Shown here piece after piece: positions 895-36,885 of a DNA stretch of 64,000 bases (positions within the stretch are counted from its first letter, which is position 1; each line of letters opens with the position of its first letter). The notes beneath the pieces are model-generated. The model searched no databases. It saw nothing but the letters and a program-made list of their open reading frames with translations, and was not told where the DNA came from. This DNA comes from Planctomycetota bacterium (GTDB lineage: Bacteria > Planctomycetota > PLA2): contig JAJFFH010000042.1 of assembly GCA_021776735.1 (NCBI GenBank), positions 8,767 to 72,766 of the forward strand, given 5' to 3'. The position numbers and the translations under genes were made by a program.

Positions 895-1264
895 GGAATC
901 CCGGGAAGCGAAGCATCCTACAACAAACAGGTCAGGGGGCCCGGGGGCAACAAACATCGCCGTCCGTACGCTCCCTCAAGTTCAACCCTCCGTGTTCAAC
1001 TTCAAATCGCGAATCACGCGGCGGCCGAGCACGATTGCGCGCGCGCCGTCACCAGAGCGATCGGACTCGGGTTCGGGAGTCTGGGTCGGGTATGAACTCG
1101 CACTGTGGGCGTCAATATTGATCCCGCGCGTCAACTCATGTTCTCCCCTCCTACCTTCGTGTTTCTTCGCGCGCTTCGTGTTTTGATTTCAGGTCGACAG
1201 ACCACGCCGCGGTCTGTCGATACCCCGCCGTTCGCACGCCCGCACGCGCCCGCCCGCTACGACG

Positions 1265-1744
1265 CTACGACGAGTTCGGCGTGCGTGCGACCGCGAACGC
1301 GGCGGCGGTGGAGAGGAGGGCGGCCGCGCCGAACAGGTAGATTCCGTAATGCAGGCTTACGGTCGTGCCGCCGGGGAAGGTTTTTGCGGCCAAGACCACC
1401 AGCGCCAGAACGAATACGTCCGCCATCGAGAATTTTGAGACCCGCGCCATCCAGGTGTGGATGGGACCGCTTTGACCTTCGTTCAGGCACGCGCGGGCGA
1501 GGGCGAGCTTGGCGATGGGGAAGACCACCGAGAACACAAACAACACGAGGCCGATGCCGGGTTGGCCGTCGAGGACCAGGTGGCGGATGCCGCCCGCGAT
1601 CGAGTACGTCTTTGGTGCGTCGAGCATGCCCAGCCAGCGGGCGAGGTCGTTGTGCGGCGCAAGGCGCGGGGTGACCGTGAAGGCGGGGGCGAACAGGCCC
1701 GCGCCGAGCAGGCCGTGCGCGAGCCAGTTGACGGCGCGCCACAT
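1265..1744 (-). CDS. PqiA-like (paraquat-inducible protein A family) integral membrane protein
   Basis: MWRAVNWLAHGLLGAG...DVFVLALVVLAAK; multiple TM helices. TAATG overlap with the upstream gene suggests translational coupling. Confidence 0.5.
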   Translation of the reverse strand: MWRAVNWLAHGLLGAGLFAPAFTVTPRLAPHNDLARWLGMLDAPKTYSIAGGIRHLVLDGQPGIGLVLFVFSVVFPIAKLALARACLNEGQSGPIHTWMARVSKFSMADVFVLALVVLAAKTFPGGTTVSLHYGIYLFGAAALLSTAAAFAVARTPNSS

Positions 1745-2373
1745 TACCGCACGAGGGTTTCGAACTCGACGCGGTCGAGCGGCAGGACGCGACAGTGCGC
1801 CTGCACCAGCCGGCCTCCGGGATTCCCGGGACTTTGAAACACCTGGTCGCCGATCTTGAGCTGCGTGACCGGCACCTCCCACTCCGCCACGAGATCGTCG
1901 CGCATGATGTCGGCATCAAGGACCTTGAATGTCACGGACTGGCCGTCGCGCACGGTGATGCGCGCCGCCTTGATGCTGTCGTCGAGCGACACCGCGCGGA
2001 CGAGGTTTTTCCAGTCGACCGACACGTTGCTCCACTTCGCCAGCAGGGTGTCCGCTTTCTTCGAGCTCTTGAAGACCTGTTGGCCCTGCCAGTCCACCGT
2101 GTAGATGAGGTCGGGAGCGCTGCCGTCCGCGTCCCACCGGCTCCCCTTCGCGGTGCGCGGCGACGCCTCCACCATGGAAAGCAGGACGTAGTACGACTTG
2201 CCGACGACGACCGGTTGTGGCTTGGGCTGGGTCGCCGGCTCCGTGCCGCCGCCCGCATTCCCTTGCTGCTTTGCAGCGATCGCAGGGCTCGCGTCCGCGC
2301 GCGGCCACCAGAAAAACGCTCCGGCGGACGCGACGACAAGCAGAGTGGTCAGGACAATCCAGAAAGCACGCAC
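1744..2373 (-). CDS. membrane-anchored hypothetical protein (N-terminal TM, periplasmic domain)
   Basis: MRAFWIVLTTLLVVASAGAFFWWP then a mixed-composition domain; coupled to the PqiA-like gene. Confidence 0.5.
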   Translation of the reverse strand: MRAFWIVLTTLLVVASAGAFFWWPRADASPAIAAKQQGNAGGGTEPATQPKPQPVVVGKSYYVLLSMVEASPRTAKGSRWDADGSAPDLIYTVDWQGQQVFKSSKKADTLLAKWSNVSVDWKNLVRAVSLDDSIKAARITVRDGQSVTFKVLDADIMRDDLVAEWEVPVTQLKIGDQVFQSPGNPGGRLVQAHCRVLPLDRVEFETLVR

Positions 2374-2485
2374 GACCGGAGTATAAGCCGACCGAGGGAG
2401 CGTTATTCGTTCAACGGCCGCGCAAAGTCCGAAGACATCGCCGTCCGTCCGCTACCGACCGAAGACCGCCCGATAGCCTCTGCGC

Positions 2486-3727
2486 CTACGCCTTGCGCTT
2501 CGGAACCGACACCCCCCACTGGCTCGGCGACCAACCGGAGCCGGTGACGGTCGCGAGGACACCGGTGAACCAGAGCGCGAGGCCTGCCACCGCACCACTC
2601 GCCGCCGACGTGCTGCCGGCCAGGAGCGCCGCGGTGACAAGAGACGCCGTCGCGATGCCGCCCAGGAACGCGAGCGCGAGAACGACGATGCCGCCGCCGA
2701 GCACGGCGTTGGTCAGGCGCACGTTGTTGGTCGCGAGCGAGAGGAGTCCGACGATCAGCAGGCCGGCGCCGGTCCCCAGCAGCGCGGGAAGGCCCAGCAC
2801 CGTTCCGGCAAGCAGCAGCGGTCCGGAGAGCCGCCACGCGAGCCAGCCGCCGCGTGCCGACCCGTCCGCACGCGGGTGCGGCTCGTGCAGCGGCGCATGC
2901 TGCGCGAACCCGTTCAGCACGAACGCGATCACGGCACGGACCTTTTGCGGGCCGAACGCGCCCCAGCGGCGCAGCTCCCACAGCTTTTGCTGCAAATCCT
3001 TGCGAAAGCGCATCCGCAAGTCCCACGGCACGAGCGAACTCGCCGGTTTGACCAGACGATCCGCGAAGCCGTTCGGCTTCACCGGCCCGTTCGCCAGCTC
3101 CGGATCCATCGCCGCATCGTGTGCGGGGGCGACCTGCTCGCCGACCTCGATGCCGCACGCCTCGGGATCGAGGTCGGTCGCGGTATCGGCGTCGGGATCG
3201 AACGGCATTTCCGGCTCGGACAGTGTCTCGGATTGGGACACCCCCGAGCTGATGGAGCGTGTCGAGTCCGTTTCGGGGGGGGCGGGGGCCGGCGCCGGAT
3301 CCGAAACCGGGTCCGGAACAACGTCGACGTGCTCCGGAATGATGATGATCTTTTTTGCGGTCTCTTCTTCGACGGCCTTGGAGTCCGTGGCTTCGGCGTC
3401 GGCGGTTTCGGCGCCCGCGGCTTGATCTGCCACGTGCTCGTCTTGTCCGGCACCCGCATTCTCGGGCTGCTCGGCGATCCGCCGTGCAGACTCCGCAGCC
3501 CCGGAACGGTTGGCGACGACGGTGTCGATGCGCGTAAAGACATCTTCGCGGAGTTCGTCGGGCACGCGCTGCAGGAACTCCTTGAAGTCGGGGTTCCAGC
3601 CTTCGTCCAAAAGACGAATGTATTCGCGTACGAACGGCTCGGCAAAAAGTGCCTGCGCGCGCTGTTCTGCGTCCAGTCGGACTGCCATCTCCACCTCCGG
3701 GGGGCCTTGGCCCAATGGGCCCTTCAC
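2486..3727 (-). CDS. hypothetical membrane protein with acidic low-complexity region and C-terminal TM helices
   Basis: Balanced composition, D/E-rich linker, 4+ C-terminal hydrophobic helices; the overlapping 469-aa R-rich ORF is an artefact. Start may be the internal M at ~3688. Confidence 0.5.
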   Translation of the reverse strand: MKGPLGQGPPEVEMAVRLDAEQRAQALFAEPFVREYIRLLDEGWNPDFKEFLQRVPDELREDVFTRIDTVVANRSGAAESARRIAEQPENAGAGQDEHVADQAAGAETADAEATDSKAVEEETAKKIIIIPEHVDVVPDPVSDPAPAPAPPETDSTRSISSGVSQSETLSEPEMPFDPDADTATDLDPEACGIEVGEQVAPAHDAAMDPELANGPVKPNGFADRLVKPASSLVPWDLRMRFRKDLQQKLWELRRWGAFGPQKVRAVIAFVLNGFAQHAPLHEPHPRADGSARGGWLAWRLSGPLLLAGTVLGLPALLGTGAGLLIVGLLSLATNNVRLTNAVLGGGIVVLALAFLGGIATASLVTAALLAGSTSAASGAVAGLALWFTGVLATVTGSGWSPSQWGVSVPKRKA

Positions 3728-3818
3728 GTCTCTCCATCGGAAGACTACCCCACGGTTTTTCAGGGGAAAGTGGCACCGAAAGAATCGAATCGGGACGGTC
3801 CCCCGCTCCCACCCCCCG

Positions 3819-6800
3819 TCAGCGCGGTCGCGCGGGCAGCTTCACCTCGATCGGCGCGCCCGGTTTCAGGTCGTGCAGGTAGCGCTGATAGGCAAAGGTC
3901 GCGTCGACTTTGAGCTCGGCGTAGATCTGATGGAGCACCGTCGGGCGCCCCAGCAGGACAAACCAACCCTCCGTGTTGGACTTCGTCTCCGCGAGCTTGT
4001 CGCCGGTCTTGGTGCGCAGCACGATGCGAACCCCCGGCGCCACGCGTCCGTCTGCAAACCGCACTACGCCGGCGAACTCCGCGCCTTTCTCGAGCCGTAG
4101 CGTGACCATGCCCCGACCGGGCCTCGCCTCGACGGGCGCCGGCCCCACGAGCCCTGCGGAGCCGCCGGTCACCCTGATGCGGAAGCGCCGGCGCGCCAAC
4201 CGCTCGAAGCGGACCTTCCCGTCGCGGCCGGTCGTGCCACGCTGCGCCTGCGGATCGGGCCGGGGAAACCGAAGCGTGTTGTGCGCCTCGACCCGCACGC
4301 CGGCGACCGGCTTGCCCGCGGGATCGACCACGCGCACCGTCAGCGTACGGTCGCGCGGCATCGCGCCGGTCCGCACGGTGATGCCGCTTGCCGGCGCGCG
4401 CACGCCGGGCGCCGCGCCGTAGACGGCGAGCGTTTCGGTGGACGGATGCGGGCGAGTGCCGTCGATCGCGATGTCCACGGTTTCGCCGCTCCGGAGCGAC
4501 AGCGCGAACCGACCCTGCCCGTCGGTCGTCGCGCGTGCACGCGGCCGGCCGGTCGCGGGGTCGTAGCCGACGACGAGCACCGCGCCGAGCGGCTCGCCAT
4601 TCGGCCCGAGCACGCGTCCCTGCACCCTGACCGCCTTCTCCAGAACAATCGTGATTTCTTCTTCCGACGGCACGACACGCTTTTCATGCCCGGCGAAGTG
4701 CGGCGTCCGACCCGGGTAGACGTCGATGTCGTAGGGCCGATACTCGAGCCCGTTCACGATCGCGTGGCCCGAAGGGTCGGTCTCGGCGTGATGGCGCTGC
4801 GCCACGCGCACGTGTGCACCCGCGACCGCATCGCCGTCCGTATCCACGACTCGGACTCGAAGCATGGCCGCAACAGGCACGTCCACCTCGAATCCGGAAA
4901 CCGCGCCATCGATCTCGACGTTGTGGCGCACGGCGGGGCGCCCGAACGGATGGACGGCAAGTTCGTACGAACCCGGTCCCAGATCGACGAACCGGAACCG
5001 GCCCAGGTCGTCGGTCCGCCGTCGCTCGATCGTCCCGTAGAACGCTCCTAGATGGTGCGCCTCGAGCAATCGCAGTTCTAGGCGCACGCGCGCCCGCGGC
5101 ACGGAAGCCCCCGTAACGCGCCCAGCCAGCGACGACGGCACCGGTAGACGGATGTCGCCCACCATCACGCGCCCGGCCCGTTCGGGATGCGGCGAAAAAT
5201 CGACCAGCTTGCGCCCGTGCCCCGCCGCTTGCACGACGAGCGTGTGCGCCAGATCGCGCCGAAGGCTCGTCAACACGAACAGGCCACGCGCGTCCGTCCG
5301 GGCATGCCGCGAATCGATGTGCTGCATGACGTCGTCATGCCGGCTCGCCATCGCGACGACCCGCGCCCCGGCCAGGGGACGACCGCCCGCGTCCAGCACC
5401 CGTCCGCTGCACTCGTCGCCTTCGTGCAACAGGAAATCGATCGCGGCCCGCGCGCCCGCATGCTTCTGCGCGGTCCCGAACCCGTCCGCGAACGCGAACA
5501 GGATCGGCGCGCGCGTCCGCAACTCGTAGTGCCCCGACGCATCCGTCAACACCGAGCGCCTGAGTTCCCAACCCTCGCCGACCCGCGCGCCGACGATCAG
5601 ACGACCGTTCGCACCGCGCACAAACCCGGTCACGAGCCGTCCGGCAAGCGGCCGCAGTTCCACACGCCCCGGCACATGCGCTGTCGCGGTCGCGATCCCG
5701 CCAAGGGGATGCCGCGCCGTGACCGTCACGGGACCGACCGGCAGCTGCAAGACCGCGCGTCCGGTCTTGTCCGCATGTGCCTGCACCGAAGCATGGGGAA
5801 GCAAACGGACGGCGATGTCCGCGCCCTGGACGGTCTGTACGACGAGTTCGCCCGCCGCACGGCGCAAGACGATCCGCACGCGCTCGCCCGCCTGACAGGG
5901 CTGCGCGACTTCGGCGGGATAACCGTCCGCCGCAACCCGCAGCGTCGCGCGCGCACCCCGGGACAACCGCAGCCGGAACCGCCCCACCGAGTCCGTCACG
6001 CTGTGCGGGCCGGCCTCGGGAGCGCCGCCGTGTAGGAGCGCCGCGCGGCTGAACGGCAAGGTCGTAGACACGCGCGCGCCGACGATCGGCTGACCATCGC
6101 CGTCCACAACCACACCGAACAGGTCACGCTCACGATCGGGCGCAGGCGACGCCGTAGTCGCGCCATCGACGCGCTTCTCCGGTGTCGTGTTCACGGGATC
6201 GGCTCCGTTGTCGGACGCGGTCCGCTCGGCCGTACGCTCCTGTCGCTCCGCAGGCTTGTCGCCGTCTTTCCACAACCACAGCGCCCCCACCGCGAGCACC
6301 CCCGCCGCGACGAGCGCAACACGCAGCGACATCGCGGACAAGAACACGGGCCACGGACGCGGGCGAACAGCAAGCGGCAAGAGCGCAAGCTGCCAGCGCG
6401 CGCGGTCGCCATGGGTGGCGTCGAGCCGCTCGCGCAGCATCCCCAGGGCCTTTTGCACACGCGAACGCACGGTGGACGCGGGCACCCCCTGCCGCTTGGC
6501 AATCTCGGCCGCAGAGCAGTCCTCCAAAAAACGCAGGAACACGGTCTCGCGGTACGGCTCCGGCAGCTCGCGCACGGCGCGGGCGACGGATTCCTGGATC
6601 TCGAGCCGCTCCGCGACCTCGTCCGGGCGCGCCGGGCCAGCCGAACCGGCCAAAGACATCGCCGTCCGTTCCTGACGTACGCGTCGTCGCCCCTCCGAGC
6701 GCCACTGCATCTTCACGAGATTGCGCAGCGTGCCGGCGAGATAGCCTCGCAGCGAGGTGCGCGGCGGCGGCGCCCGCAACGCGGCCACCATGGCGTCCTG

Positions 6801-6902
6801 CGCAAGGTCGTCGGCCAAATGCGGGTCGGCCACAAGACGCCGCGCAAGACCGCGCAGAAACCGCCCATGAGCCACGAGTTCGTCGGTACTTCTGTGTGTC
6901 AC
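3819..6902 (-). CDS. ECF sigma-70 domain fused to TM helix and periplasmic carboxypeptidase-regulatory-like repeat array (ECF fusion paralog 1)
   Basis: The N-terminal ~190 aa carry sigma2 (DLAQDAMVAAL) and sigma4 (ETVFLRFLEDCSAAEIAKRQGVPASTVRSRVQKAL) motifs. A TM helix LRVALVAAGVLAVGALWLW follows, then repeated GRVxDxxGxPxAGARV beta-sandwich units. Confidence 0.8.
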   Translation of the reverse strand: MTHRSTDELVAHGRFLRGLARRLVADPHLADDLAQDAMVAALRAPPPRTSLRGYLAGTLRNLVKMQWRSEGRRRVRQERTAMSLAGSAGPARPDEVAERLEIQESVARAVRELPEPYRETVFLRFLEDCSAAEIAKRQGVPASTVRSRVQKALGMLRERLDATHGDRARWQLALLPLAVRPRPWPVFLSAMSLRVALVAAGVLAVGALWLWKDGDKPAERQERTAERTASDNGADPVNTTPEKRVDGATTASPAPDRERDLFGVVVDGDGQPIVGARVSTTLPFSRAALLHGGAPEAGPHSVTDSVGRFRLRLSRGARATLRVAADGYPAEVAQPCQAGERVRIVLRRAAGELVVQTVQGADIAVRLLPHASVQAHADKTGRAVLQLPVGPVTVTARHPLGGIATATAHVPGRVELRPLAGRLVTGFVRGANGRLIVGARVGEGWELRRSVLTDASGHYELRTRAPILFAFADGFGTAQKHAGARAAIDFLLHEGDECSGRVLDAGGRPLAGARVVAMASRHDDVMQHIDSRHARTDARGLFVLTSLRRDLAHTLVVQAAGHGRKLVDFSPHPERAGRVMVGDIRLPVPSSLAGRVTGASVPRARVRLELRLLEAHHLGAFYGTIERRRTDDLGRFRFVDLGPGSYELAVHPFGRPAVRHNVEIDGAVSGFEVDVPVAAMLRVRVVDTDGDAVAGAHVRVAQRHHAETDPSGHAIVNGLEYRPYDIDVYPGRTPHFAGHEKRVVPSEEEITIVLEKAVRVQGRVLGPNGEPLGAVLVVGYDPATGRPRARATTDGQGRFALSLRSGETVDIAIDGTRPHPSTETLAVYGAAPGVRAPASGITVRTGAMPRDRTLTVRVVDPAGKPVAGVRVEAHNTLRFPRPDPQAQRGTTGRDGKVRFERLARRRFRIRVTGGSAGLVGPAPVEARPGRGMVTLRLEKGAEFAGVVRFADGRVAPGVRIVLRTKTGDKLAETKSNTEGWFVLLGRPTVLHQIYAELKVDATFAYQRYLHDLKPGAPIEVKLPARPR

Positions 6903-7005
6903 GCCAAGGAGTTGCCGCCGCCGCCCGAAGTGTCCATGATTATTCTGGATTGTCCTGCCGATCCGTTCAGCCGTGGTGACCCGGGCACTTCGCGCCCCGG
7001 CCCCC

Positions 7006-8520
7006 CTACTTCAACTGCTTGAGGGCTTGGGCGCAGCGCTTGCCGCTGCGGTGTTCCGGGGACTTTTTGACCACCGCTTCGTGCAGCGCGATGGCCTGCG
7101 CGCGGCGTTGCGGGTTCTTGTCCGCGAGCACCGTCTTCAGCGACCGTGCGTACAGGTCGTTGGACGCGTAGACCGTCAGGCAAAACGCCAGCGCGCGGTA
7201 GTACGGATCAAACCACGACTCGTCCTTGACCAGCCCGACGAGGTTGTCGAAAAGGCGCGGATTGTCGGTCGTCTCCAGGGTCTCGCGCGTCCACTTCTTC
7301 CAGCGCTCCTTGAAGTACGTTGTCGCGACTTGACTTGCGGGGCGCACATGGCCGGCGACATTCTCGCCGTACAACTTGGCGATCCACTCAAACAACTCGT
7401 CCTCGGGCGGGTGGCCGCGCCTGTAGGCGAGCTGATACATCCGCAGCGCCAGGGCCGGTTCCCTGAGCTTGCGCAGCCGGCGGGCCGCGGCGAGAGGAAC
7501 GGACGGCGATGTTGCGTAGCGGCGCGCGACCTTGTGGCAGTTCTCGAAAGGCTTGTCCGACTCGGCGGCTTCCTCGGCCTCGAGCTCCGGCACGCGCTTG
7601 CGCAACGGCTCCAGGAACGAACGGCGCTTCATCTCTGTGCGCAGCCACGCCAGCGCCTCGCGGCCGCTCTTTTGACGCAGCCCCTCGAGCCGACGGTCCG
7701 CGGCCTCCAGCGCGAACGCGCGCAGGCCCTTGTGTCCCGGTTCCTCGGCGAGCCCGCCGGCCGCGATGTCGAGTGCGCTCGCCGGATCAGATGCCGCCCG
7801 CGCTTCGTCCAGAGCGGTCTCGCCCGCGCTCGGCCGCAGTCCGAAAAACAGCGCGGCTCCGACAGCCGCCACGATGACGACCGCGGCGATCGCAATCACA
7901 GCGCGTCGGTTTCCCCCGGCGTCCACCCGATCCCGAAACCCGGTGATGACCGGCCCGCGCGGCGTGAGGCGCACGCCCGCGCGCACCCGCTGGCGCAGCG
8001 GACTGTTGTCGGGCTGCACGACGGAGAACACCTTCACGGGATACGGAATACCCTTGAACGTGTGCTCCCCGGCCGAGGCGGCGGGCGCCTCCTTGCGGTT
8101 CATCGTGAGATACACGGCTTCGGTGAAATAGACCTCACCGGGCTCGGCGATGGCCTCGAGCCGCGCCGCGATGTTGACCGGCTCGCCGAGGATGTCACCG
8201 TCGAGAAGCTCCACATCGCCGGAGTTGATCGCCACCCGAACGTGCAACCGTTCCTGCTCCGCGACCGTGCCGTTGTGCTGGCGCAGCACTTCCTGCACGG
8301 CGACCCCGCACATCACGGCGTTGGTCGAACTGTCGAAGCGGACCAGGAACGCGTCCCCGATCTCCTTGACGACCGTCCCCCCGAAGTGCCGAAAGACCGG
8401 CTGCAGCAGGTGCGCGTGCTGTTCCAGCAGGGTATTCAGATCGTCCCGACTCGAATCCGAGACCCGGGCCGTGAAGCCCTGGATGTCGGTGAACATGATC
8501 GTGAGATGCCGCGTCGCCAC
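7006..8520 (-). CDS. class III adenylate/guanylate cyclase with TM segment and C-terminal helical domain
   Basis: IMFTDIQGFTA...GDAFLVRF...EPVNIAARLE catalytic motifs. Confidence 0.85.
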   Translation of the reverse strand: MATRHLTIMFTDIQGFTARVSDSSRDDLNTLLEQHAHLLQPVFRHFGGTVVKEIGDAFLVRFDSSTNAVMCGVAVQEVLRQHNGTVAEQERLHVRVAINSGDVELLDGDILGEPVNIAARLEAIAEPGEVYFTEAVYLTMNRKEAPAASAGEHTFKGIPYPVKVFSVVQPDNSPLRQRVRAGVRLTPRGPVITGFRDRVDAGGNRRAVIAIAAVVIVAAVGAALFFGLRPSAGETALDEARAASDPASALDIAAGGLAEEPGHKGLRAFALEAADRRLEGLRQKSGREALAWLRTEMKRRSFLEPLRKRVPELEAEEAAESDKPFENCHKVARRYATSPSVPLAAARRLRKLREPALALRMYQLAYRRGHPPEDELFEWIAKLYGENVAGHVRPASQVATTYFKERWKKWTRETLETTDNPRLFDNLVGLVKDESWFDPYYRALAFCLTVYASNDLYARSLKTVLADKNPQRRAQAIALHEAVVKKSPEHRSGKRCAQALKQLK

Positions 8521-8602
8521 GCGCGGGATTCTACCTCCGGAGCCCCCTCGACAAATACAACGGAGACAACGGAAAAAAGCAGACGGACGGCGATGTCCTG
8601 GG

Positions 8603-9148
8603 CTATCGCCAATCGACGAGGTCGATCATCACCGCGTTCTTTGGACAATAGCGCTCGCCGTCCAGATAGCCGTCGAGATCGTCTTCCACGTCGGATGGCA
8701 GGCCATCGCACGGGCCCACGGCGTCGTCGGCAGCAATGATCGCGAAGTCCTCGTTGTCGAGATGCCAGGTCCACGGTCCGTTGTGGTCGTCCTGCCCACC
8801 GCCTTCCACGACGAATCCGTCGGGGATGCCATCGGTCACGCCGTCCCAGAGATCCAGCAGTTCGTCGATGCCGTCTTCGTCCGTCACCCAGACGCTGAAC
8901 AACTCGCCCTCGACGTCGAACGTCGCGACGACGCCGCCCTCAAGATAGATCGGACCCGGGAAGGGACCCGGCACCGGTACGGGTACGGGCACCGGAACGG
9001 GAACGGGGACGGGTGCCGGCCCCGGACCGCCGCCACCACCGTCAACCGGTATGACGACCTCGTCGTTCGAGCCGGTCGGCAGCGTCGTCTTGCCGGAGCC
9101 GCACGCGACCAGACCGAGAGCCAAAGCGATCGCAGCCAAGCAGCGCAT
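8603..9148 (-). CDS. lipoprotein with PV-repeat linker
   Basis: Internal start MRCLAAIALALGLVACGS (lipobox LVAC); PVPVPVPVPVPVPG repeat; acidic C-terminus. The longer 288-aa ORF has an R-rich N-terminal extension judged spurious. Confidence 0.55.
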   Translation of the reverse strand: MRCLAAIALALGLVACGSGKTTLPTGSNDEVVIPVDGGGGGPGPAPVPVPVPVPVPVPVPGPFPGPIYLEGGVVATFDVEGELFSVWVTDEDGIDELLDLWDGVTDGIPDGFVVEGGGQDDHNGPWTWHLDNEDFAIIAADDAVGPCDGLPSDVEDDLDGYLDGERYCPKNAVMIDLVDWR

Positions 9149-9426
9149 GGCGGGTTCTCCTGTTGCCGAGTCCGCGCGAGGCGTGGCACCGTCCGGCGCG
9201 CGGATGTATTCGGGCATAGGGATCGTTGGCGCACTTCCGGACCCGCAAGACGGCTGTTTTGCGGGGGTCTTGCGCCGTTTTGGAGCGCTTGTTGCGTCTT
9301 CGCGTCGATTGCGGGTGAAGGTGTCACCCGAAAGAATCGCCGTCCGTGTGCTGACTCGGCTCGACCCGGTTATCTTGGCGGCTGGCGGTGCGCCCCTAAC
9401 GGCAGCACATCTACCAGGAGGTCTCC

Positions 9427-10521: not shown

Positions 10522-10593
10522 CGTCACGGGACGCCGAATCGCAATCGTTCATTCGGGGAGCGGCCACATGGTCGCTCCCTTTTTTTTTGACGC

Positions 10594-11676: not shown

Positions 11677-11774
11677 GCGGGCACTCTACGGGACTCACCG
11701 GCACAAGAGTATCGCCGTCCGTTCCTGTCCGCAGGGTTTGTCGCCGAACCCGACCGATCATCCATAGTGGCGCC

Positions 11775-12224
11775 GTGGAAACCCACACGTTCACCTTCTC
11801 TCTTTGGGCCTGCCTCATTCCGATCGCGATCTCGCTCGTACCGCTCCTCTTTGGCATCCGCAGCCTTCGCCGCCGAAGCCGCCCCCTCGGCTGGTTTCTC
11901 GTCGGCTCCGGGGTCGTGCTCGCCCTGGTCTTCGGACCGATGCTCTTCACCGACCGCATCGTGATCGACGACCGGCACATCGAACACACCACCGGATTCT
12001 GGTTCGCGCCGACCCGCAAGGGATTCGTGTTCGCCGAAACCGAGAGGGTCCGGATACGCACGGAGCGGGTCGCGGATCCGCGCTCAAGCCACAACGTGGA
12101 CGCTTGGTACGTGTATCTGAAGACGGGGAAAACCCGCCGCCTCGTCGCCGGCGATCTGTGGTCGAGCCATCACGACGAGATCCTCGAGCTGCTACGCGCC
12201 CGCGGCGTGGACGTTTCGCGTTGA
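11775..12224 (+). CDS. hypothetical small membrane protein
   Basis: GTG start, two N-terminal TM helices, GC3-rich codon usage. Confidence 0.45.
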   Translation: METHTFTFSLWACLIPIAISLVPLLFGIRSLRRRSRPLGWFLVGSGVVLALVFGPMLFTDRIVIDDRHIEHTTGFWFAPTRKGFVFAETERVRIRTERVADPRSSHNVDAWYVYLKTGKTRRLVAGDLWSSHHDEILELLRARGVDVSR

Positions 12225-12269
12225 TCGGGTCCGTTCCGGAAAAGGGGATCGGCAGAAACAGCGAAAAAA

Positions 12270-12405
12270 GCGGACGGACGGCGACATCTGCCGTCCGCCG
12301 GGGGCGCGCTGCGGCGCGCCCCCCCCCCCCATTAACAGGAAACCGGGGCCGCCCGGCCAAATCTGCCGTCCGCGGGGGGCGCGCGGGGGCGCGCCCCCGC
12401 CCCCC
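12270..12405. repeat. tandem ~45-bp units, each an ATCTGCCGTCCGC box followed by a perfect GC hairpin (GGGGGCGCGC...GCGCGCCCCC), preceded by a motif-containing hairpin
   Basis: Unit 1 at 12286-12330 and unit 2 at 12361-12405, separated by a 30-nt spacer; GCGGACGGACGGCGACATCTGCCGTCCGCC self-complementary at 12270-12299. Confidence 0.8.
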
Positions 12406-14027: not shown

Positions 14028-14030
14028 CCA

Positions 14031-14108
14031 ACGGACGGCGATACTCAGGGGGCGCTCCGGAGCCCCTGCAGCTCCCCCGGTCCACGGCCAAACGACATCG
14101 CCGTCCGT
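14031..14108. repeat. inverted pair of the dispersed ACGGACGGCGAT motif forming a long hairpin downstream of the DEAD-box helicase gene
   Basis: ACGGACGGCGAT at 14031-14042 and ATCGCCGTCCGT at 14097-14108, separated by 54 nt; candidate terminator-like structure. Confidence 0.7.
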
Positions 14109-18104: not shown

Positions 18105-18216
18105 ACCCCGGACGGAAGCAGACGGACGGCGATTTCGCGGTGCACCGGCTCTGTGCCCCCGCCCCCCCATTCCACACATGGTTCTCGTCCCACGCGCTAC
18201 AGTGGCCCACAGTTCC

Positions 18217-18999: not shown

Positions 19000-19035
19000 C
19001 AAACGGACGGCGATTCTTGCGATTGCCGTTCGTCC

Positions 19036-19506
19036 ATGCCCAAGAAGACATCCAAGCCCTTTACTAAGCGTGTGCTCAAGCGTTACGCGGAAATGTTACT
19101 GCGCCACATCCACCAGTGCGGCGGACGCGACCGGTACGTTTCGGTCGAGGAGATCGAGGACGCCCTCGGGCTGGAAGCGTGGCTGGTGCTGCGTCTGTGC
19201 CGCACTCACCTGCGCGCCGACGTCCATGTGGCGCGGCGCGCGCCCGTACGGCTCGCCGACAGCGGCGATTTCCAGTCCACGCTCGAACGAGAGTGGATGC
19301 GCTGCCTGGTCGCCGAACCCCACGTCCGCATCCGCCCCTGCGCGGTGCGCCTGACGGAGAAGGAGCTGCTGCGTCCCAAGAAGCGCCCCCGGAGGAGCAA
19401 GCGCAAGAGCCGCAAACAGAGGAGTATCGCCGTCCGTCTGCTTTGGCCTGGGGGCTTGCCGTTTCGCAAGATATCGGGGATCGTGGGTGCGTGGCTGACG
19501 AACTGA
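19036..19506 (+). CDS. hypothetical basic protein
   Basis: ATG ORF of balanced composition until a lysine/arginine tail; the 3' end overlaps a dispersed-motif copy. Confidence 0.3.
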   Translation: MPKKTSKPFTKRVLKRYAEMLLRHIHQCGGRDRYVSVEEIEDALGLEAWLVLRLCRTHLRADVHVARRAPVRLADSGDFQSTLEREWMRCLVAEPHVRIRPCAVRLTEKELLRPKKRPRRSKRKSRKQRSIAVRLLWPGGLPFRKISGIVGAWLTN

Positions 19507-24438: not shown

Positions 24439-24522
24439 CGCCGGCGCGGAACCCACATGTACAGGATACGACAGATTCAGGGGCAGGAACGGACGGCGAT
24501 GTCTCCGCCTACAATCTGAGGG

Positions 24523-28099: not shown

Positions 28100-29035
28100 T
28101 CACCGAGTGCGCACGTGGTCGTCGAGGACCTCGCGCATCGTGTGACGGGCCCAGCGAACGATCGCCGGATTGGTGTCGCGGTAATAGTCCAGCGCGATCA
28201 ACGCCATGGACAGCGCGAGGCCACGTCCGCGGAGCCAGGTGGCGTCATCGACTTGGAGCGACGTGCGAAACGCCTGGCGGCTCTCACCCGCAAACAGGTT
28301 CCACGCCGGAAGCAACTCGACCGCGGGATCGCCGACGCCCAAGCCGCCCCAGTCGATGACGGCGGAGAGCCGCCCGTTTGCCGCCAGCAGATTCCCCGGC
28401 GCGAGATCCCCATGGACCCAAACGGGAGACGCCGCCCAGACGGGCGCGTTCAGATCGGCCTGCCACGCCGCCGTTACCGCGACCGTATCGATGAGCCCAT
28501 CGCAGTTCGCGATCGCCTCGCGGGTCCGCGCATCGCGCCGCGCCAGCGGCACGCCCCGCAAGAAGTTGTGCGCGCCGGGCGCCGGCCCCGCACTCGGATC
28601 GATCCGCTGCAACGCAAGAATGAACTGCGCAAGATCGGCGGCCGCCTGCACGGGATCGGCAAGGCCATCCAGGGTCGGATTTTCCCCGTCGAGCCAGTCG
28701 CAAACCGTCCACGGCGCCGGATAGCCCTCGCCCGGCGCGCCCTTCGCAAGCGGTACCGGAAGAAGAAGCGGCAAGTTCGCGGCGAACTGCGGGAGCCACC
28801 GGTGCTCCTTGTCGATCTGCTCCAACTTGCCCGGACCTAGCTGAAGTGGCATACGGACGGCGATGCCGGGAAGAGCACCAAGCGGGCCGAGCCTGTAGAT
28901 CGCGTTCGACGTGCCGTCGGACGCCACGGGTTCTACGGCGAGATCCGCCCACTGCGGAAACTGCGCGCGCAAGAGCCGACGGACAAGCTCGGCGTCCGAC
29001 ACGAGCTGATCGGCGTGCATTCTCCTTTGACTCAT
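28100..29035 (-). CDS. aminoglycoside phosphotransferase (APH) family kinase
   Basis: DGTSNAIYRL, HGDLAPGNLL, IDWG motifs. Confidence 0.85.
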   Translation of the reverse strand: MSQRRMHADQLVSDAELVRRLLRAQFPQWADLAVEPVASDGTSNAIYRLGPLGALPGIAVRMPLQLGPGKLEQIDKEHRWLPQFAANLPLLLPVPLAKGAPGEGYPAPWTVCDWLDGENPTLDGLADPVQAAADLAQFILALQRIDPSAGPAPGAHNFLRGVPLARRDARTREAIANCDGLIDTVAVTAAWQADLNAPVWAASPVWVHGDLAPGNLLAANGRLSAVIDWGGLGVGDPAVELLPAWNLFAGESRQAFRTSLQVDDATWLRGRGLALSMALIALDYYRDTNPAIVRWARHTMREVLDDHVRTR

Positions 29036-29056
29036 CTGCCCCCGCCCCCCTAAACC

Positions 29057-31500: not shown

Positions 31501-31626
31501 GAACAGCACACGGACGGCGATATGGGCGTCGTACGCCCGGCCGCCTCCTGCCCGAAATGGGATGTGGGACTCCGTGCCGAGCCGACCGATCTGCCGAGGA
31601 AAGCGCACTCTGCGAGGAAAAACAAC

Positions 31627-34309: not shown

Positions 34310-34332
34310 CAGGCCCGGCGTGAAGCCAATCC

Positions 34333-34560
34333 ATGAGAGTCGTCAGCATAAACATCGGACAACGGGGAAGTCGTGCGGGGGCCCAAATTCGAAACGGAAA
34401 GCGGGATCAACAAGCCCCCCGTATCCGCACGGGTTGCCGTCGGGAAACTGGGGCTGGAATCGGACGAGATCGTCCACACCGAACACCATGGCGGCGAGGA
34501 TCAGGCGGTCTACATCTATCGATCCGCACACGCTCATGTACGGCAACGGCCTCGGGCATC
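34333..34560 (+). pseudogene. frameshifted N-terminal fragment of a MOSC-domain gene
   Basis: MRVVSINIGQRGS then, in the +1 frame, FETESGINKPPVSARVAVGKLGLESDEIVHTEHHGGEDQAVYIYR; parallels the N-terminus of the intact MOSC gene at 36232. Confidence 0.55.
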
Positions 34561-34889
34561 ACCTCGTGTGGAACGGGAGGCGCGCTGGGGCTCAAAGGAA
34601 CTCCGGGAGACCCATCGAAAGAACACGTCCTTTACGGTGTGCCGCCTCTACCTCGGACGCGTTCTCGTCGCGGAAGGACCCGCCGACGAGCGCTACGGAG
34701 CGTTCAGGTGCTATCCGGGCTTCCGCCCAGCTATCGCGAGGGACGGGGAGACATCGGTTGGGCCTTGCCATCGCGGGCCAGGTGAGCAAGGCCCGGGAGA
34801 AGCTCGCGGACCTCGAACAGCGTGCGGCCTCCCGCGGGAGAACGTTCGCCCCCGGTGTTCTCGCCGTCCGTCCGAAAAGGCACGCGGCA

Positions 34890-35981
34890 CTACTCGAAAT
34901 CCGTCGGTTTGAGCCAGGCCTTGAACCGCCAGCGGTTGCCGCTCGACCAGTGCAGGCCCTTGTCGTCCCAGTAGATCGTAAAGCGCTTCTTCGACTCCAG
35001 GTCATGGACCGACAGCGTGTTGGCCAGGATCGGCAGGAAGAAGAGCCGACCGGAATAGCGAATGCGACCGACGGCGCGGGTCCGGCCCTTCGTGCGCAAC
35101 GGTGCAGCCATGATCTTCTTCATGGCGCTCCTCGCGCCGGCGAGCCAGTACACGACACCGTGACGCGCGACGATGTACGAGCGGTCGGGAACCAGATCGC
35201 CCTCGTCCTCCTTGCGAACGGCGACGACGCGCCGGGCGCCGACGACGTAGCGGCCGTCGAACGCTTGAACGGTTTCGGGGCCCGGAGGCGTCGCGTACGG
35301 CTTCCACCCGCCCGGCGTCAAGGAGTAGACGCCCTGCGGCGTCGCGATTTTGTCGCCGTGCCGGACCACGTCGATGCTGAAGGTCTCGCGCGATCGGGGA
35401 TAGGAACACATCTTGCGCGCCTTCTTCATGTCCGCGCCGCGAGCGCCCCAGGGGACCCAGTACAGCGTGGTGGTCTTCCCCCCCTTCTTCCACCTGTGCG
35501 GATGATAGGCGACCATCCCGTCCGGGTACAACGCAACCACGCCGGCCCGGGTCTTGTTCACGACACATGTCTCGAAGTGCCTGAGGCCGCTCGCCCGGAC
35601 GAACGCCAGCTTGTGCTGGAGGGAATCGAGGAACACGAGGACGCCGTCGTCGCGCACCGTGACGGGCTTCATGGTGATGATGGCCGCGTCCTTGGGATCG
35701 CCGGACATCGACAGCTGCTGAACCGGAACCACGCGCACGTCCTTGGGCCGGCCCGTTCTCTGCAGAACGTAGACGTCCCGGAACTTTTCCATGACCTCGG
35801 CGGCCTTCGAGCGGGGGAACCTCGGTCCGCCGCCCCCTTCGAGGGACGCACCCTTGTCGTCGGGCTTCCAGAGCAACCACTTCGACGTGGCGTGGACGAG
35901 CCGGGCCTCTCCCGGCTTGTACGTGTGTTCCTGCGCGAGGGTCAACGTCGAGAGCAGGGCTACGAGAGCGAGGCGCGACAT
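34890..35981 (-). CDS. secreted hypothetical protein
   Basis: Signal peptide MSRLALVALLSTLTLA; balanced composition; overlapping R-rich ORFs are artefacts. Confidence 0.65.
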   Translation of the reverse strand: MSRLALVALLSTLTLAQEHTYKPGEARLVHATSKWLLWKPDDKGASLEGGGGPRFPRSKAAEVMEKFRDVYVLQRTGRPKDVRVVPVQQLSMSGDPKDAAIITMKPVTVRDDGVLVFLDSLQHKLAFVRASGLRHFETCVVNKTRAGVVALYPDGMVAYHPHRWKKGGKTTTLYWVPWGARGADMKKARKMCSYPRSRETFSIDVVRHGDKIATPQGVYSLTPGGWKPYATPPGPETVQAFDGRYVVGARRVVAVRKEDEGDLVPDRSYIVARHGVVYWLAGARSAMKKIMAAPLRTKGRTRAVGRIRYSGRLFFLPILANTLSVHDLESKKRFTIYWDDKGLHWSSGNRWRFKAWLKPTDFE

Positions 35982-36231
35982 ACGGCCACACTAACCGATG
36001 GAGCCTTCGCCGGAACCTGCTTCTTCGGCGCACCTCCCGAACCAGGAAACCGGAACACGGGAAACGAGGTGCGCATGCAGGATCGAATGATCGGACGCAG
36101 GGCGCTGGACGCGCGCTCGAAGCGCATCTCGCGGGACCGCACGTACTCGTCGGTGGCAACGGCACCTGACCGCGGGGTCGGCGCGAAGCAAAAACCGAGA
36201 TCGCAAACGGACGGCTGTAGCATCGACGGCG

Positions 36232-36885
36232 ATGAAAGTCGTCAGCGTCAACGTAGGCCGTTGTGAAACCGTCACCGGCCCCGGCTTCGAGGCGGAAAGC
36301 GGAATCGTCAAGCGCTCCGTGCCCGGGCCTGTAGCGGTCGGCAGCCTCGGTCTTGAATCGGACGAAATCGTCCATTTGGAGCACCACGGCGGACCGGATC
36401 AGGCCGTCTACGTCTACCGCACGGAGGATTACGACTGGTGGTCAACCGAACTCGGGCGAACGCTCGACCCCGGCCTGTTCGGCGAGAACCTCACGCTGTC
36501 CGGACTCCCCGGCGCGGACCCGGTGATCGGCACCCGGATCAGGTTCGCAAACCTGGAACTCGAGGTGACGGCGCCGCGGATTCCATGCGCCACGTTTTCC
36601 GCCCGCATGAACGACCCCGACTTCATCAAGCGCTTCAAGGACGCCGCGCGGCTCGGTGCGTATTGCCGCGTGATCGCGCCCGGTCATGTGGAAGCGGGCG
36701 AATCGTTCACGTTCTCGGCGCCCGCCGATAGCGACACCGCGGTCTCGGTCGTCGATCTGTTCCGCGCGCACTATCGCGGACTCGACGCCGACGAAGTCCG
36801 TCGTTTCCTGGCCGCTCCCATCGACCACCGAACCCGCACGTGGCTGGAACACAAGCTGCGCGAGCTGCGAAAAAGCAACCAGTAG
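36232..36885 (+). CDS. MOSC domain-containing protein (YiiM-like)
   Basis: MKVVSVNVG...ESDEIVHLEHHGGPDQAVYVY...C-terminal MOSC beta-barrel. Confidence 0.8.
   Translation: MKVVSVNVGRCETVTGPGFEAESGIVKRSVPGPVAVGSLGLESDEIVHLEHHGGPDQAVYVYRTEDYDWWSTELGRTLDPGLFGENLTLSGLPGADPVIGTRIRFANLELEVTAPRIPCATFSARMNDPDFIKRFKDAARLGAYCRVIAPGHVEAGESFTFSAPADSDTAVSVVDLFRAHYRGLDADEVRRFLAAPIDHRTRTWLEHKLRELRKSNQ

What the first reader, a model, noticed from the sequence alone, without database searches (positions are those of the whole stretch)
954..36232. Dispersed 12-18 nt motif ACGGACGGCGAT (consensus AGGAACGGACGGCGATGT / AGCAGACGGACGGCGAT): 18 copies, all in the first 36 kb
Copies (plus-strand coordinates): 956-967, 2437-2448, 6658-6669, 7499-7510, 8583-8594, 9335-9346, 11711-11722, 12271-12282 (within a hairpin), 14031-14042, 14097-14108, 18120-18131, 19003-19014, 19426-19437, 24489-24500, 28863-28874, 31510-31521, 36205-36232 (split copy), 34861-34872 (1 mismatch). 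A specific GC-rich 12-mer is expected well under once by chance in 64 kb. Fourteen copies are intergenic, and ten of those sit on the coding strand 0-100 nt upstream of a start codon. Three lie inside CDSs in different frames (ECF fusion linker, cyclase, APH), so the constraint is at the DNA/RNA level. A 27-nt extended version, ACATCGCCGTCCGTACGCTCCCTCAAG, is identical at 954-980 and 14095-14121. None occur after 36.3 kb, including in the lower-GC blocks. It could be a regulator or alternative-sigma binding site, a 5'UTR RNA element, a REP/DUS-like genomic repeat, or the scar of a miniature mobile element. The many artefactual ORFs encoding IAVR or TDGD peptides stem from this motif.
Basis: seen in the sequence. 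Interest (0 to 1): 0.65.

Follow-up and report, generated by a model that had tools for sequence, protein, structure and literature searches.

The report
Dispersed 12-base planctomycete DNA signature motif
One exact 12-base sequence, ACGGACGGCGAT, occurs 17 times in the first 36 kb of a planctomycete genome fragment. It sits mostly between genes, in either direction, and looks like a recognition tag read on the DNA, but its function is still unproven.

Summary
ACGGACGGCGAT occurs 17 times exactly (0.06 expected), all at or before position 31521. Two further family members lie at 12274 and 38713, and a split copy at 36205-36233. It is the only strongly over-represented 12-mer in the window.

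The invariant core sits in a non-palindromic motif of about 20 nt, A-G-C-A-n-core-g-T-y, with an alternative AGGA prefix. Copies are about ninefold denser in non-coding DNA (1.85 versus 0.20 per kb). Orientation does not follow transcription: 8 sense and 6 antisense where it can be judged.

Five or six copies lie inside genes. There they replace codons without an indel; in the APH gene the motif overlies a conserved AVR.

Three copies pair with an inverted partner to form significant hairpins just after stop codons. Nothing supports a MITE or IS scar, a palindromic REP, a known RNA family, or a fixed promoter geometry.

The source is an uncultured, Gemmataceae-like planctomycete MAG. No relative, metagenome, virus or plasmid sequence I could reach carries the repeat.

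My best reading, at low confidence, is a DNA-level, orientation-independent protein-recognition tag, closest in anatomy to DNA uptake sequences. The main difficulty is its absence from the adjacent 28 kb (9.45 copies expected). A regional operator array and a selfish, locally copied repeat remain live rivals.

The parts
956..967 (-). Exact copy (gagcgtACGGACGGCGATgtttg). Non-coding, sense, 61 nt upstream of the DUF4062 start (ATG 894).
   Evidence: The start is fixed by full-length P0123 and its homologues. It shares 27 identical nt (43 nt at 84%) with the 14097 copy.
2437..2448 (-). Exact copy between two minus-strand genes, 37 nt after the stop at 2486 and 63 nt before GTG 2373. Sense.
   Evidence: The gene calls come from the independent Logan contig L294.
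4830..4841 (-). Exact copy inside the ECF sigma-CarboxypepD_reg fusion gene (3819-6902, minus strand). Sense, read as T-D-G-D within a CarboxypepD_reg repeat.
Evidence: There is no indel against the paralogues.
5805..5816 (+). Exact copy inside the same ECF fusion gene. Antisense, read as I-A-V-R.
6658..6669 (-). Exact copy in the linker between sigma regions 2 and 4 of the ECF fusion gene. Sense, read as (E)-R-T-A-M.
   Evidence: it aligns without a gap to RRRAKS and LAVAQS in the paralogues. The 21 nt at 6654-6674 are the exact reverse complement of 24484-24504.
7499..7510 (+). Exact copy inside the adenylate/guanylate cyclase gene (7006-8520, minus strand). Antisense, in the C-terminal region that has no Pfam domain.
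8583..8594 (+). Exact copy, antisense, 8 nt beyond the stop of the BP74_N-domain gene (8603-9148, minus strand) and 62 nt upstream of the cyclase start. On the minus strand it is followed by CTGC and TTTTTT.
   Evidence: The local fold is not significant (z = -0.5).
9336..9347 (-). Exact copy in the divergent spacer between the BP74_N gene (start 9148) and the thioredoxin-like gene (ATG 9427).
11711..11722 (-). Exact copy in a divergent spacer, 34 nt upstream of ATG 11676 of a thioredoxin-like/HEAT-repeat gene.
12274..12285 (+). One-mismatch family member (aagcggACGGACGGCGAC). It is the 5' arm of a hairpin with GCCGTCCG at 12290-12297. It lies 49 nt after the stop of ORF 11775-12224 and 284 nt before the DEAD-box helicase ATG.
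   Evidence: It scores 24.1 bits in the position-weight scan. The fold is -46.5 kcal/mol, z = -4.7. On the minus strand, 12305-12262 is a canonical terminator-like hairpin followed by six U.
14031..14042 (+). Exact copy 3 nt after the helicase stop codon (its AGC prefix overlaps the TAG stop). It is the left arm of an inverted pair.
   Evidence: The pair fold of 14026-14113 is -45.6 kcal/mol, z = -3.9.
14097..14108 (-). Exact copy, the right arm of the inverted pair (54 nt between arms). Antisense to both flanking plus-strand genes.
   Evidence: The independent Logan contig L081 has the same sequence.
18122..18133 (+). Exact copy 17 nt after the MFS transporter stop and 44 nt before the methyltransferase ATG 18178. 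Sense.
19003..19014 (+). Exact copy 3 nt after the methyltransferase stop (TAGCAA prefix) and 21 nt before ATG 19036. It forms a hairpin with a degenerate inverted partner, ATTGCCGTTCGT, at 19022-19033.
   Evidence: The fold of 18998-19038 is -18.4 kcal/mol, z = -3.3.
19426..19437 (-). Exact copy, antisense, in the last 27 codons (read as IAVR) of ORF 19036-19506 and 53 nt upstream of a possible next start (GTG 19491).
24489..24500 (+). Exact copy in a divergent spacer, 22 nt upstream of the GNAT acetyltransferase ATG 24523 and 9 nt upstream of a TACAAT box.
28853..28864 (+). Exact copy inside the APH phosphotransferase gene (28100-29035, minus strand). Antisense, read as I-A-V-R over a conserved (A/V)-V-R-(L)-P with an invariant Arg.
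   Evidence: In the alignment with 15 homologues there is no gap at the motif, and a 5-residue insertion (PLGAL) lies just N-terminal to it. The Arg uses CGT, a 10% codon.
31510..31521 (+). Exact copy, the last one in the window. It lies 9 nt after the methyltransferase stop (31500) and abuts ATG 31522 of a weakly supported ORF.
36205..36233 (+). Split or degenerate copy (aACGGACGGCtgtagcatcgACGGCGATG). Its final ATG is the start codon of the MOSC-domain gene.
38713..38724 (-). One-mismatch copy with family-type flanks (acagccAAGGACGGCGATgtttc). It is the only family member beyond 36.3 kb.
   Evidence: position-weight scan 17.9 bits.

Best explanation
ACGGACGGCGAT is the invariant core of an asymmetric DNA motif of about 20 bp, specific to this lineage. 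I propose that it works on double-stranded DNA as the recognition sequence of one sequence-specific binding factor. Its effect would depend on how densely it is present, not on its orientation or its exact distance from genes.

Selection or biased short-patch copying keeps it exact. Non-coding DNA tolerates it best, so it accumulates there. Inside genes it is written into compatible codons by substitution. Where two copies face each other they double as terminator-like hairpins.

The closest working model is a DNA uptake or 'self-tag' sequence (DUS in Neisseriaceae, USS in Pasteurellaceae): a receptor prefers DNA that carries the tag, and recombination then spreads it.

Shown: the existence, anatomy, statistics, DNA-level nature and non-insertional origin of the motif. 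Inferred: that a protein reads it. Speculative: that the process is uptake or recombination.
For: - Exactness. There are 17 exact copies against 0.06 expected. One-mismatch copies number 5 against 1.3 expected, and two-mismatch copies show no excess. This sharp profile is expected for a strict recognition sequence kept exact by drive or selection. It is not the profile of an ordinary degenerate regulator site.
- Architecture. An invariant 12-mer has semi-conserved flanks (AGC at -5 to -3, T/C at +13) and no further conservation.
- Orientation. Both orientations occur, 8 plus-strand and 9 minus-strand. Relative to transcription the split is 8 sense to 6 antisense where it can be judged.
- Location. 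Density is 1.85 per kb in non-coding DNA against 0.20 per kb in coding DNA (p = 1e-5).
- Copies inside genes arose without insertion. In the APH gene the motif encodes IAVR over a conserved AVR with an invariant Arg, using the 10% codon CGT. The ECF fusion copies align to the paralogues without a gap.
- Even spacing. Across the long genes between 4830 and 9336, copies recur every 0.75-1.1 kb whether the DNA is coding or not.
- Hairpins. Three inverted pairs form significant hairpins directly after stop codons (z = -3.3 to -4.7). One is a canonical hairpin followed by a U-tract. DUS are reported to sit in permissive regions, within genes as well as between them, and often as inverted pairs at terminators (PMC3630211).
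- Some copies share 21-43 nt of flank, which indicates copying between sites.
- The motif was absent from everything else I searched. That fits a lineage-private tag.
Against: - Regional restriction. No exact copy lies in the adjacent 28 kb, where 9.45 are expected (P = 8e-5).
  - That half has a similar tetranucleotide signature up to 54 kb.
  - It carries the same lineage-typical gene families.
  - Its proteins are just as 'orphan' at 90% identity as those of the first half.
  - It also shows no integrase.
  - So a foreign island or a chimeric join is not supported. A genome-wide tag should be present there.
- The genome-wide frequency could not be measured.
- Natural competence is not known in Planctomycetes (my own knowledge), and the window contains no competence genes.
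- Short contigs of relatives lack the motif (DUF2461 at 78% and 74% identity, an ECF sigma at 94%; 5.7 kb in all). This sample is too small to be decisive.
Confidence: 0.3

Rival explanations
1. Regional operator or roadblock array. The motif would be the binding site of one DNA-binding regulator or architectural protein that acts on a chromosomal domain of at least 38 kb. The model is the 13-bp asymmetric stoperators of Cluster A mycobacteriophages, or the KorB operators spread over IncP plasmids.
For: - It explains the regional restriction directly: copies run from 956 to 38724, with none in the rest of the contig.
- About 60% of the promoter-containing spacers in the first 36 kb carry a copy, against none of about 15 in the second half (my gene map).
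- The motif is an asymmetric core of 12-13 bp at a density of about 1 per 2 kb. [quoted passage not shown]
- At the GNAT gene the motif lies 9 nt upstream of a TACAAT box, which is an operator-like position.
Against: [quoted passage not shown] Here the split is 8 sense to 6 antisense.
- The region holds ordinary, unrelated chromosomal genes. It has no phage, plasmid or ICE hallmark apart from one XRE/CI-like HTH protein at 25148-26650, and that gene has no motif at its own promoter.
- A third of the copies lie inside genes.
- The distance to -10-like boxes varies (9, 22, 35 nt).
Confidence: 0.25
2. Selfish or neutral short repeat that spreads locally. Spread would be by short-patch gene conversion or by a REPIN-like, RAYT-type mechanism. 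Any function would be incidental, such as hairpins that terminate or stabilise transcripts.
For: - Subsets of copies share identical flanks of 21, 27 and up to 43 nt, which points to copy-and-paste.
- Local clustering is what short-range copying would produce.
- The inverted doublet at 14031/14097 (78 nt overall, z = -3.9) looks like a REPIN. Three hairpins lie after stop codons.
- The copies are strongly enriched outside genes.
Against: - The core is not palindromic, and most copies are singletons. REPs are palindromic and REPINs are doublets (PMC3116915).
- The copies inside genes have no indel.
- The window contains no RAYT or other transposase.
- Flanks diverge within about 5 nt in most copies.
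- A neutral repeat would be expected to show decayed copies with two or more mismatches. None are in excess.
Confidence: 0.2
3. RNA-level element in 5' leaders. The motif would be the target of a small RNA or an RNA-binding protein, or one half of a 5'-3' UTR pairing that closes the mRNA.
For: - Seven exact copies plus the split copy lie on the sense strand 0-63 nt upstream of a start codon.
- Three genes are bracketed by a sense copy upstream and an antisense copy at the 3' end: BP74_N (9336/8583), ORF 19036 (19003/19426) and the helicase (12274/14097).
- Strict 12-nt identity would suit recognition by base pairing.
Against: - Orientation relative to transcription is not biased (8:6).
- Three antisense copies lie inside genes.
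- The distance to the start codon is not fixed (0-187 nt).
- Putative -10 boxes lie downstream of the motif at two or three genes, which would leave the motif outside the transcript.
- There is no Rfam match and no conserved structure around single copies.
Confidence: 0.1
4. Promoter element of an alternative (ECF) sigma factor. Four copies read GGAAC, which resembles an ECF -35 box.
For: The window encodes several ECF sigma factors. The prefix variant AGGAACGG contains GGAAC.
Against: - Only 4 of 17 copies have GGAAC.
- No conserved position lies 16-18 nt downstream or upstream of the block.
- Copies occur inside genes and in antisense.
- No copy lies upstream of any ECF gene.
Confidence: 0.04
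5. Scar or end of a MITE or IS element, or a sequencing or assembly artefact.
For: A short repeat in many non-coding places is superficially like a solo terminal repeat.
Against: - There is no longer shared element, no target-site duplication and no transposase.
- Copies inside genes are in frame and overlie conserved residues.
- The independent Logan assemblies L081 and L294 contain the same genes, and L081 shows the same two copies.
- The motif resembles no adapter sequence I know of.
Confidence: 0.03

Closest known systems
DNA uptake sequences (DUS of Neisseriaceae, USS of Pasteurellaceae)
   Same: - A short, non-palindromic, invariant core (10-12 nt) with semi-conserved flanks.
- Both orientations occur.
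- Density is on the order of one per 1-2 kb.
- Copies favour permissive non-coding DNA but also occur inside genes without disrupting them.
- Copies are frequently arranged as inverted pairs that form terminator-like hairpins (PMC3630211).
- Stretches without the tag are known in those genomes and mark mobile elements (PMC7371117).
- From memory, the reverse complement ATCGCCGTCCGT resembles the Neisseria 12-mer ATGCCGTCTGAA (shared GCCGTC). I treat this as coincidence.
   Different: - The phylum differs, and competence is not known in it.
- The genome-wide distribution is untested.
- The motif is absent from 28 kb of the same contig, and that stretch does not look foreign.
- No receptor or competence genes are in view.
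- Uptake bias has not been tested.
Stoperators and operators of Cluster A mycobacteriophage repressors (L5 gp71 type)
   Same: An asymmetric site of 12-13 bp is read by one protein. More than twenty near-identical copies are spread over about 50 kb, in promoters and in short intergenic spaces, and are confined to one genomic entity (PMC9283540).
   Different: - Stoperators are oriented with transcription and lose function when reversed. Here orientation is unbiased.
- The carrier here is ordinary chromosomal DNA, not a phage.
- No cognate repressor has been identified.
REP sequences and REPINs mobilised by RAYT transposases
   Same: Short, abundant repeats outside genes. The inverted doublet at 14031/14097 forms a long hairpin. 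Repeats often lie at 3' ends of genes (PMC3116915).
   Different: The core has no internal palindrome. Singletons dominate. Copies occur inside genes by substitution. The window contains no RAYT.
HIP1-type highly iterated short sequences of cyanobacteria (from my own knowledge)
   Same: A lineage-specific oligomer, over-represented in coding and non-coding DNA alike. It arises by substitution and its function is unresolved.
   Different: HIP1 is an 8-bp palindrome spread evenly over the genome. This motif has a 12-bp asymmetric core, favours non-coding DNA about ninefold, and is regionally clustered.

Membership tests
DUS/USS uptake sequences | A short exact core, greatly over-represented, with both orientations used. 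| tested here: met
   17 exact copies against 0.06 expected; 8 on the plus strand and 9 on the minus strand.
DUS/USS uptake sequences | Genome-wide distribution at roughly even density, except in foreign DNA. | tested here: inconclusive
   Only 64 kb is available. Density is 1 per 2.1 kb in the first 36 kb and zero in the next 28 kb, and that second stretch does not look foreign. The rest of the genome could not be reached.
DUS/USS uptake sequences | Copies inside genes arise by substitution at permissive or compatible positions. | tested here: met
   APH alignment A2 and ECF paralogue alignment A1 show no gap at the motif. In the APH gene it overlies a conserved AVR.
DUS/USS uptake sequences | Inverted pairs at terminators. 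| tested here: met
   Three significant hairpins lie directly after stop codons. One is followed by a U6 tract on the minus strand.
DUS/USS uptake sequences | Sequence-biased DNA uptake by a competent host with a cognate receptor. | not testable with these tools
   This needs uptake or transformation assays and the full gene inventory of the genome.
DUS/USS uptake sequences | Shared, as the same sequence or as a dialect, by related species. | tested here: inconclusive
   The motif is absent from contigs of relatives: L082, L083 and L381 (5.7 kb together) and L379, L292, L293 and L380 (57 kb together, distant relatives). No contig with multiple copies appeared in the metagenome scan.
REP / REPIN | The repeat unit is an imperfect palindrome (hairpin). 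| tested here: not met
   ACGGACGGCGAT and its 20-nt extension have no self-complementarity. Single copies show no recurrent local fold.
REP / REPIN | Located strictly outside genes. | tested here: not met
   Five or six of the 17 copies lie in coding sequence.
REP / REPIN | An associated RAYT (Y1 transposase) gene. | tested here: inconclusive
   None among the window ORFs scanned against Pfam. The rest of the genome was not seen.
MITE / IS remnant | A longer shared element with terminal inverted repeats and target-site duplications. | tested here: not met
   Information content falls to background within about 5 nt of the core. The repeat search finds no longer family. I saw no duplications at the inverted pairs.
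Phage-type stoperators | An asymmetric site of about 13 bp in many copies within one genomic entity. | tested here: met
Phage-type stoperators | Orientation tied to the direction of transcription. | tested here: not met
   8 sense to 6 antisense in the informative contexts.
Phage-type stoperators | The carrier is a temperate phage that encodes the cognate repressor. | tested here: not met
   PHROGs and Pfam show no phage structural or replication genes, only one XRE/CI-like HTH protein.
ECF sigma promoter | Bipartite -35 and -10 elements with a spacer of 16-18 nt. | tested here: not met
   There is a single conserved block of about 20 nt and no second element.
Known structured RNA (Rfam) | A match to a curated covariance model. 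| tested here: not met
   The only hit in the window is tRNA-Arg.

The most novel reading that the evidence does not exclude
The motif is a genuine 'self-DNA' tag of a planctomycete lineage. A dedicated receptor or repair and recombination factor would read it, and biased uptake or gene conversion would spread it. That would be the first DUS/USS-like system outside Neisseriaceae and Pasteurellaceae, in a phylum not known to be naturally transformable.

Planctomycete genomes carry very large families of type IV pilin-like proteins (my own knowledge), and the Neisseria DUS receptor belongs to that protein class. The motif-free half of the window would then mark DNA with a different history.

An alternative novel reading is a stoperator-like silencing array acting on ordinary chromosomal genes.
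Probability: 0.15. Interest if true: 0.85.

Novelty: new variant of a known kind. Interest (0 to 1): 0.55.

Why it matters
Strictly conserved, asymmetric, dispersed oligomers are rare in bacteria. Where they are understood (DUS/USS, Chi, KOPS, stoperators), each revealed a dedicated molecular machine.

A private 12-mer maintained at about one per 2 kb, and written even into conserved codons, implies an unknown factor that reads it in a poorly studied, uncultured planctomycete lineage.

If it proves to be genome-wide, it would suggest sequence-selective DNA uptake or recombination in Planctomycetes. If it proves to be regional, it would be a chromosomal counterpart of phage and plasmid global operator arrays.

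Either way the 21-bp consensus is a ready probe for finding the binding partner. In practice, the motif also explains spurious ORFs (IAVR and TDGD peptides) and could serve as a binning marker for this lineage.

Tried and rejected
- Genome collection scan. I used the single genome-contig scan with the DEAD-box helicase. The patterns were too universal, and it returned 80 unrelated loci with no close relative. These served only as a negative control, with 0 motif copies in 80 loci.
- Metagenome scan with AGCNNACGGACGGCGATGTC. It returned 88 loci, each with a single copy, mostly chance matches inside genes encoding ELTDGDV-type peptides. L264/L269, L267 and L277/L279 had suggestive flanks, but each holds only one exact copy, and L277 has no Rfam match.
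- Viral contigs (three scans) and PLSDB/INPHARED blastn gave only single, chance-level hits.
- Attempts to reach more of the source genome. The Logan contigs only re-cover window 909-9600 and 13610-15567. Look-ups of three ORFs failed (9427-10521, 12570-14027 and the right-edge 62933-63601). The full-length left-edge protein is held only in the NCBI record, which the look-ups did not return.
- Relatives' contigs L082, L083, L292, L293, L379, L380 and L381 have no motif and no analogous dispersed 12-mer. An apparent repeat in L379 is a 150-nt tandem repeat that encodes TPR units.
- Chimeric contig or foreign island as the reason for the motif-free half. This is not supported by the tetranucleotide signature, by gene content or by 90%-identity cluster sizes, which are all singletons in both halves.
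- Prophage idea. PHROGs and Pfam show no phage genes.
- Sigma-70 promoter scan. It found no consensus promoters in 1-20 kb.
- A small GNRA hairpin within the motif (GGACG-GCGA-UGUCU). It is not kept in copies whose core is followed by A or T instead of G.
- Literature search for the sequence itself returned only unrelated primers.

Full report
**Observation.** An exact search finds 17 copies of ACGGACGGCGAT, 8 on the plus strand and 9 on the minus strand, all between 956 and 31521. Dinucleotide-preserving shuffles expect 0.06 and never give more than 1. Third-order Markov simulations expect 0.07 exact, 1.3 one-mismatch and 17.5 two-mismatch copies. I observe 17, 5 and 13, so the excess lies almost entirely in exact copies. 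No other 12-mer is comparably over-represented.

A position-weight matrix built from the copies recovers all 17. It adds only 12274 (one mismatch, 24.1 bits) and 38713 (one mismatch, 17.9 bits) above noise. A split copy at 36205-36233 ends in the start codon of the MOSC gene.

**Anatomy.** When the copies are aligned on the core, information content is high only from -5 to about +14. The consensus is A-G-C-A-n-ACGGACGGCGAT-g-T-y, and four copies carry an AGGA prefix instead. A is avoided for five positions downstream. Nothing is conserved 16-18 nt away on either side. The motif is not self-complementary.

Subsets of copies share longer identical flanks:
- The 21 nt at 6654-6674 are the exact reverse complement of 24484-24504. 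One of these is in a gene and the other is in a spacer.
- 938-980 and 14079-14121 share 27 identical nt, and 43 nt at 84%.

**Host and context.** GC content is 62-72%. The genes include three ECF sigma-CarboxypepD_reg fusions, a PF07638 ECF sigma next to a Ser/Thr kinase, DUF1572, DinB-like proteins, a DEAD-box helicase, DUF2461 and methyltransferases. Named homologues are from Planctomycetota MAGs. I infer an uncultured, Gemmataceae-like planctomycete.

The window proteins occur on one 73,241-bp NCBI contig and in Logan assemblies of SRR15505515, and all are singletons at 90% identity. The region shows no phage, plasmid, transposase or integrase genes. The only such hit is one XRE/CI-like HTH protein.

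**Position relative to genes.** I built the gene map from codon statistics, Pfam, the independent Logan gene calls and homologue N-termini. Non-coding DNA makes up 16.4% of the first 36.3 kb but holds 11 of the 17 copies. That is 1.85 against 0.20 per kb (p = 1e-5).

Seven exact copies and the split copy lie on the sense strand 0-63 nt upstream of a start codon. However, three of the upstream copies are in divergent spacers, where any orientation is sense to one gene. In the 14 informative contexts the split is 8 sense to 6 antisense, which is not a bias.

Distances to -10-like boxes vary:
- 9 nt to TACAAT at the GNAT gene;
- 22 nt to TAGAGT at the thioredoxin/HEAT gene;
- 35 nt to TAGGAT at the DUF4062 gene.

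This argues against a fixed promoter element or a 5'-UTR element.

**Copies inside genes.** Five copies lie well inside genes, in different frames and on both strands.
- In the APH phosphotransferase, aligned with 15 homologues of 48-55% identity, the motif encodes IAVR. It lies exactly over the family's conserved (A/V)-V-R-(L)-P, whose Arg is invariant, and there is no gap at the motif. That Arg uses CGT, a 10% codon in this genome.
- In the ECF fusion, the three copies align to the two in-window paralogues without a gap at the motif.

These copies therefore arose by substitution or by short-patch conversion that preserves length, not by insertion of an element. Between 4830 and 9336 copies recur every 0.75-1.1 kb across long genes. 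That suggests pressure for density rather than for position.

**Hairpins.** Three copies have an inverted partner close by:
- 14031/14097 has 54 nt between the arms, starts 3 nt after the helicase stop, and folds at -45.6 kcal/mol (z = -3.9).
- 19003 pairs with a degenerate partner at 19022. It lies 3 nt after a methyltransferase stop and folds at -18.4 kcal/mol (z = -3.3).
- 12274 pairs with 12290-12297, and 12265-12339 folds at -46.5 kcal/mol (z = -4.7). On the minus strand this region is a canonical hairpin followed by six U.

Single copies show no recurrent structure. Rfam finds only a tRNA in the window.

**Regional restriction.** From the class densities, 9.45 copies are expected in 36.3-64 kb, and no exact copy is there (P = 8e-5). 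The tetranucleotide signature is similar from 1 to 54 kb. The same lineage-typical gene families occur in both halves. Proteins of both halves are equally without close relatives. I therefore have no evidence that either half is foreign or that the contig is chimeric, although read-level checks were not possible.

**Elsewhere.** The motif does not occur as a repeat in any other sequence I could reach:
- 80 unrelated genomic loci;
- 88 metagenome loci selected for an 18-nt version of the motif, each with a single copy;
- viral contigs;
- plasmid and phage records;
- contigs of relatives at 59-94% protein identity.

These relative contigs are short or distant, so loss or gain among close relatives remains untested. 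The literature search found only unrelated primers.

**Interpretation.** The data show a signal that acts on the DNA and is independent of orientation. It is kept exact, tolerated best in non-coding DNA, written into genes by substitution, and reused as hairpin arms.

This anatomy matches that described for DNA uptake sequences, which sit in permissive regions inside and between genes and often form inverted pairs at terminators (PMC3630211). I therefore take a protein-read 'tag' of the DUS/USS type as the leading model, at a confidence of 0.30.

Its weak point is the motif-free 28 kb. A regional operator or roadblock array would explain that directly. The model would be the 13-bp asymmetric stoperators of Cluster A mycobacteriophages (PMC9283540). 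It conflicts, however, with the unbiased orientation and with the ordinary gene content (0.25).

A selfish repeat that copies itself locally, or a REPIN-like element, fits the shared flanks and the clustering. It does not fit the non-palindromic core, the copies inside genes, or the lack of decayed copies (0.20).

RNA-level, sigma-promoter, MITE-scar and artefact readings are unlikely.

**Verdict.** The feature is real, statistically robust and specific to this lineage. It fits no curated family and its function is unresolved. Counting the motif over the whole genome would separate the two leading models.

Noticed in passing
window 10594-11676 (-), in-frame TGA at 11503-11505: A signal-peptide, thioredoxin-like/HEAT-repeat gene carries an in-frame TGA in the context FTKTY-U-PHC, a UxxC redox motif. 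A hairpin starts just downstream (GAAGCAguUGCUUC; the fold of 11508-11440 is -26.8 kcal/mol, z = -2.8), and coding potential continues across the stop. This is a candidate selenoprotein with a bacterial SECIS-like element.
   Followed up: partly
window 12265-12414 (+): A 75-nt tandem duplication (79% identity) lies in the 346-nt leader of the DEAD-box helicase. Each unit has a GC-rich hairpin (GGGGGCGCGC...GCGCGCCCCC) followed by a C-run. Only the first unit keeps the motif arm. It may be a structured, cold-shock-type leader.
   Followed up: partly
window 28865-28885 (-), APH gene: The APH protein has a 5-residue insertion (PLGAL), absent from all 15 aligned homologues, immediately N-terminal to the motif-encoded IAVR. 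A 2-residue insertion lies shortly after it.
   Followed up: no
window 49612-49660 and L381:598-642: A relative with 94% protein identity (ENA ERZ25073596) shares the ECF sigma and kinase genes at about 93% DNA identity. It also shares about 45 nt upstream of the ECF ATG, including a TATCAT box 8 nt before the start codon. Homology then stops abruptly, which marks a synteny break. The true ECF start is ATG 49611.
   Followed up: partly
window 34379-34521 and 36277-36419: A 143-nt direct repeat at 73% identity. The second copy lies inside the MOSC gene, so the first looks like a fragment of a MOSC paralogue. It sits in the 32-34.9 kb stretch, which has low coding potential and no Pfam hits.
   Followed up: no
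window 38020-38091 (+): Three tandem 24-nt units (two of them identical) near the 3' end of the SnoaL-like gene.
   Followed up: no
window 3819-6902, 40705-43815, 53089-56055 (all -): Three paralogous ECF sigma factors are fused to long CarboxypepD_reg/Ig-like repeat regions (28-33% identity). Further CarboxypepD_reg proteins lie at 56120-59459, and an ECF/Ser-Thr kinase pair at 45557-49611.
   Followed up: partly
L267:1024-1049; L264:1491 and L269:130; L277:741 and L279:2847: Three sets of metagenome contigs have suggestive flanks around a single copy of the motif. L267 has a near-perfect palindrome, ACGGACGGCGATgtcATCGCCGTCCG. L264 and L269 share 51 nt (80%) with the window copy at 2437, in a non-coding position about 70 nt upstream of an ATG. 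L277 and L279 carry AGCCAACGGACGGCGAT inside a long non-coding stretch, flanked by CGAGGGGGGA/TCCCCCCTCG. They may be distant relatives of the family or chance matches.
   Followed up: partly
window 10555-10580 (+): A textbook intrinsic terminator (11-bp stem followed by eight T) lies in the convergent spacer after the thioredoxin-like gene 9427-10521. This organism therefore does use canonical terminators.
   Followed up: no
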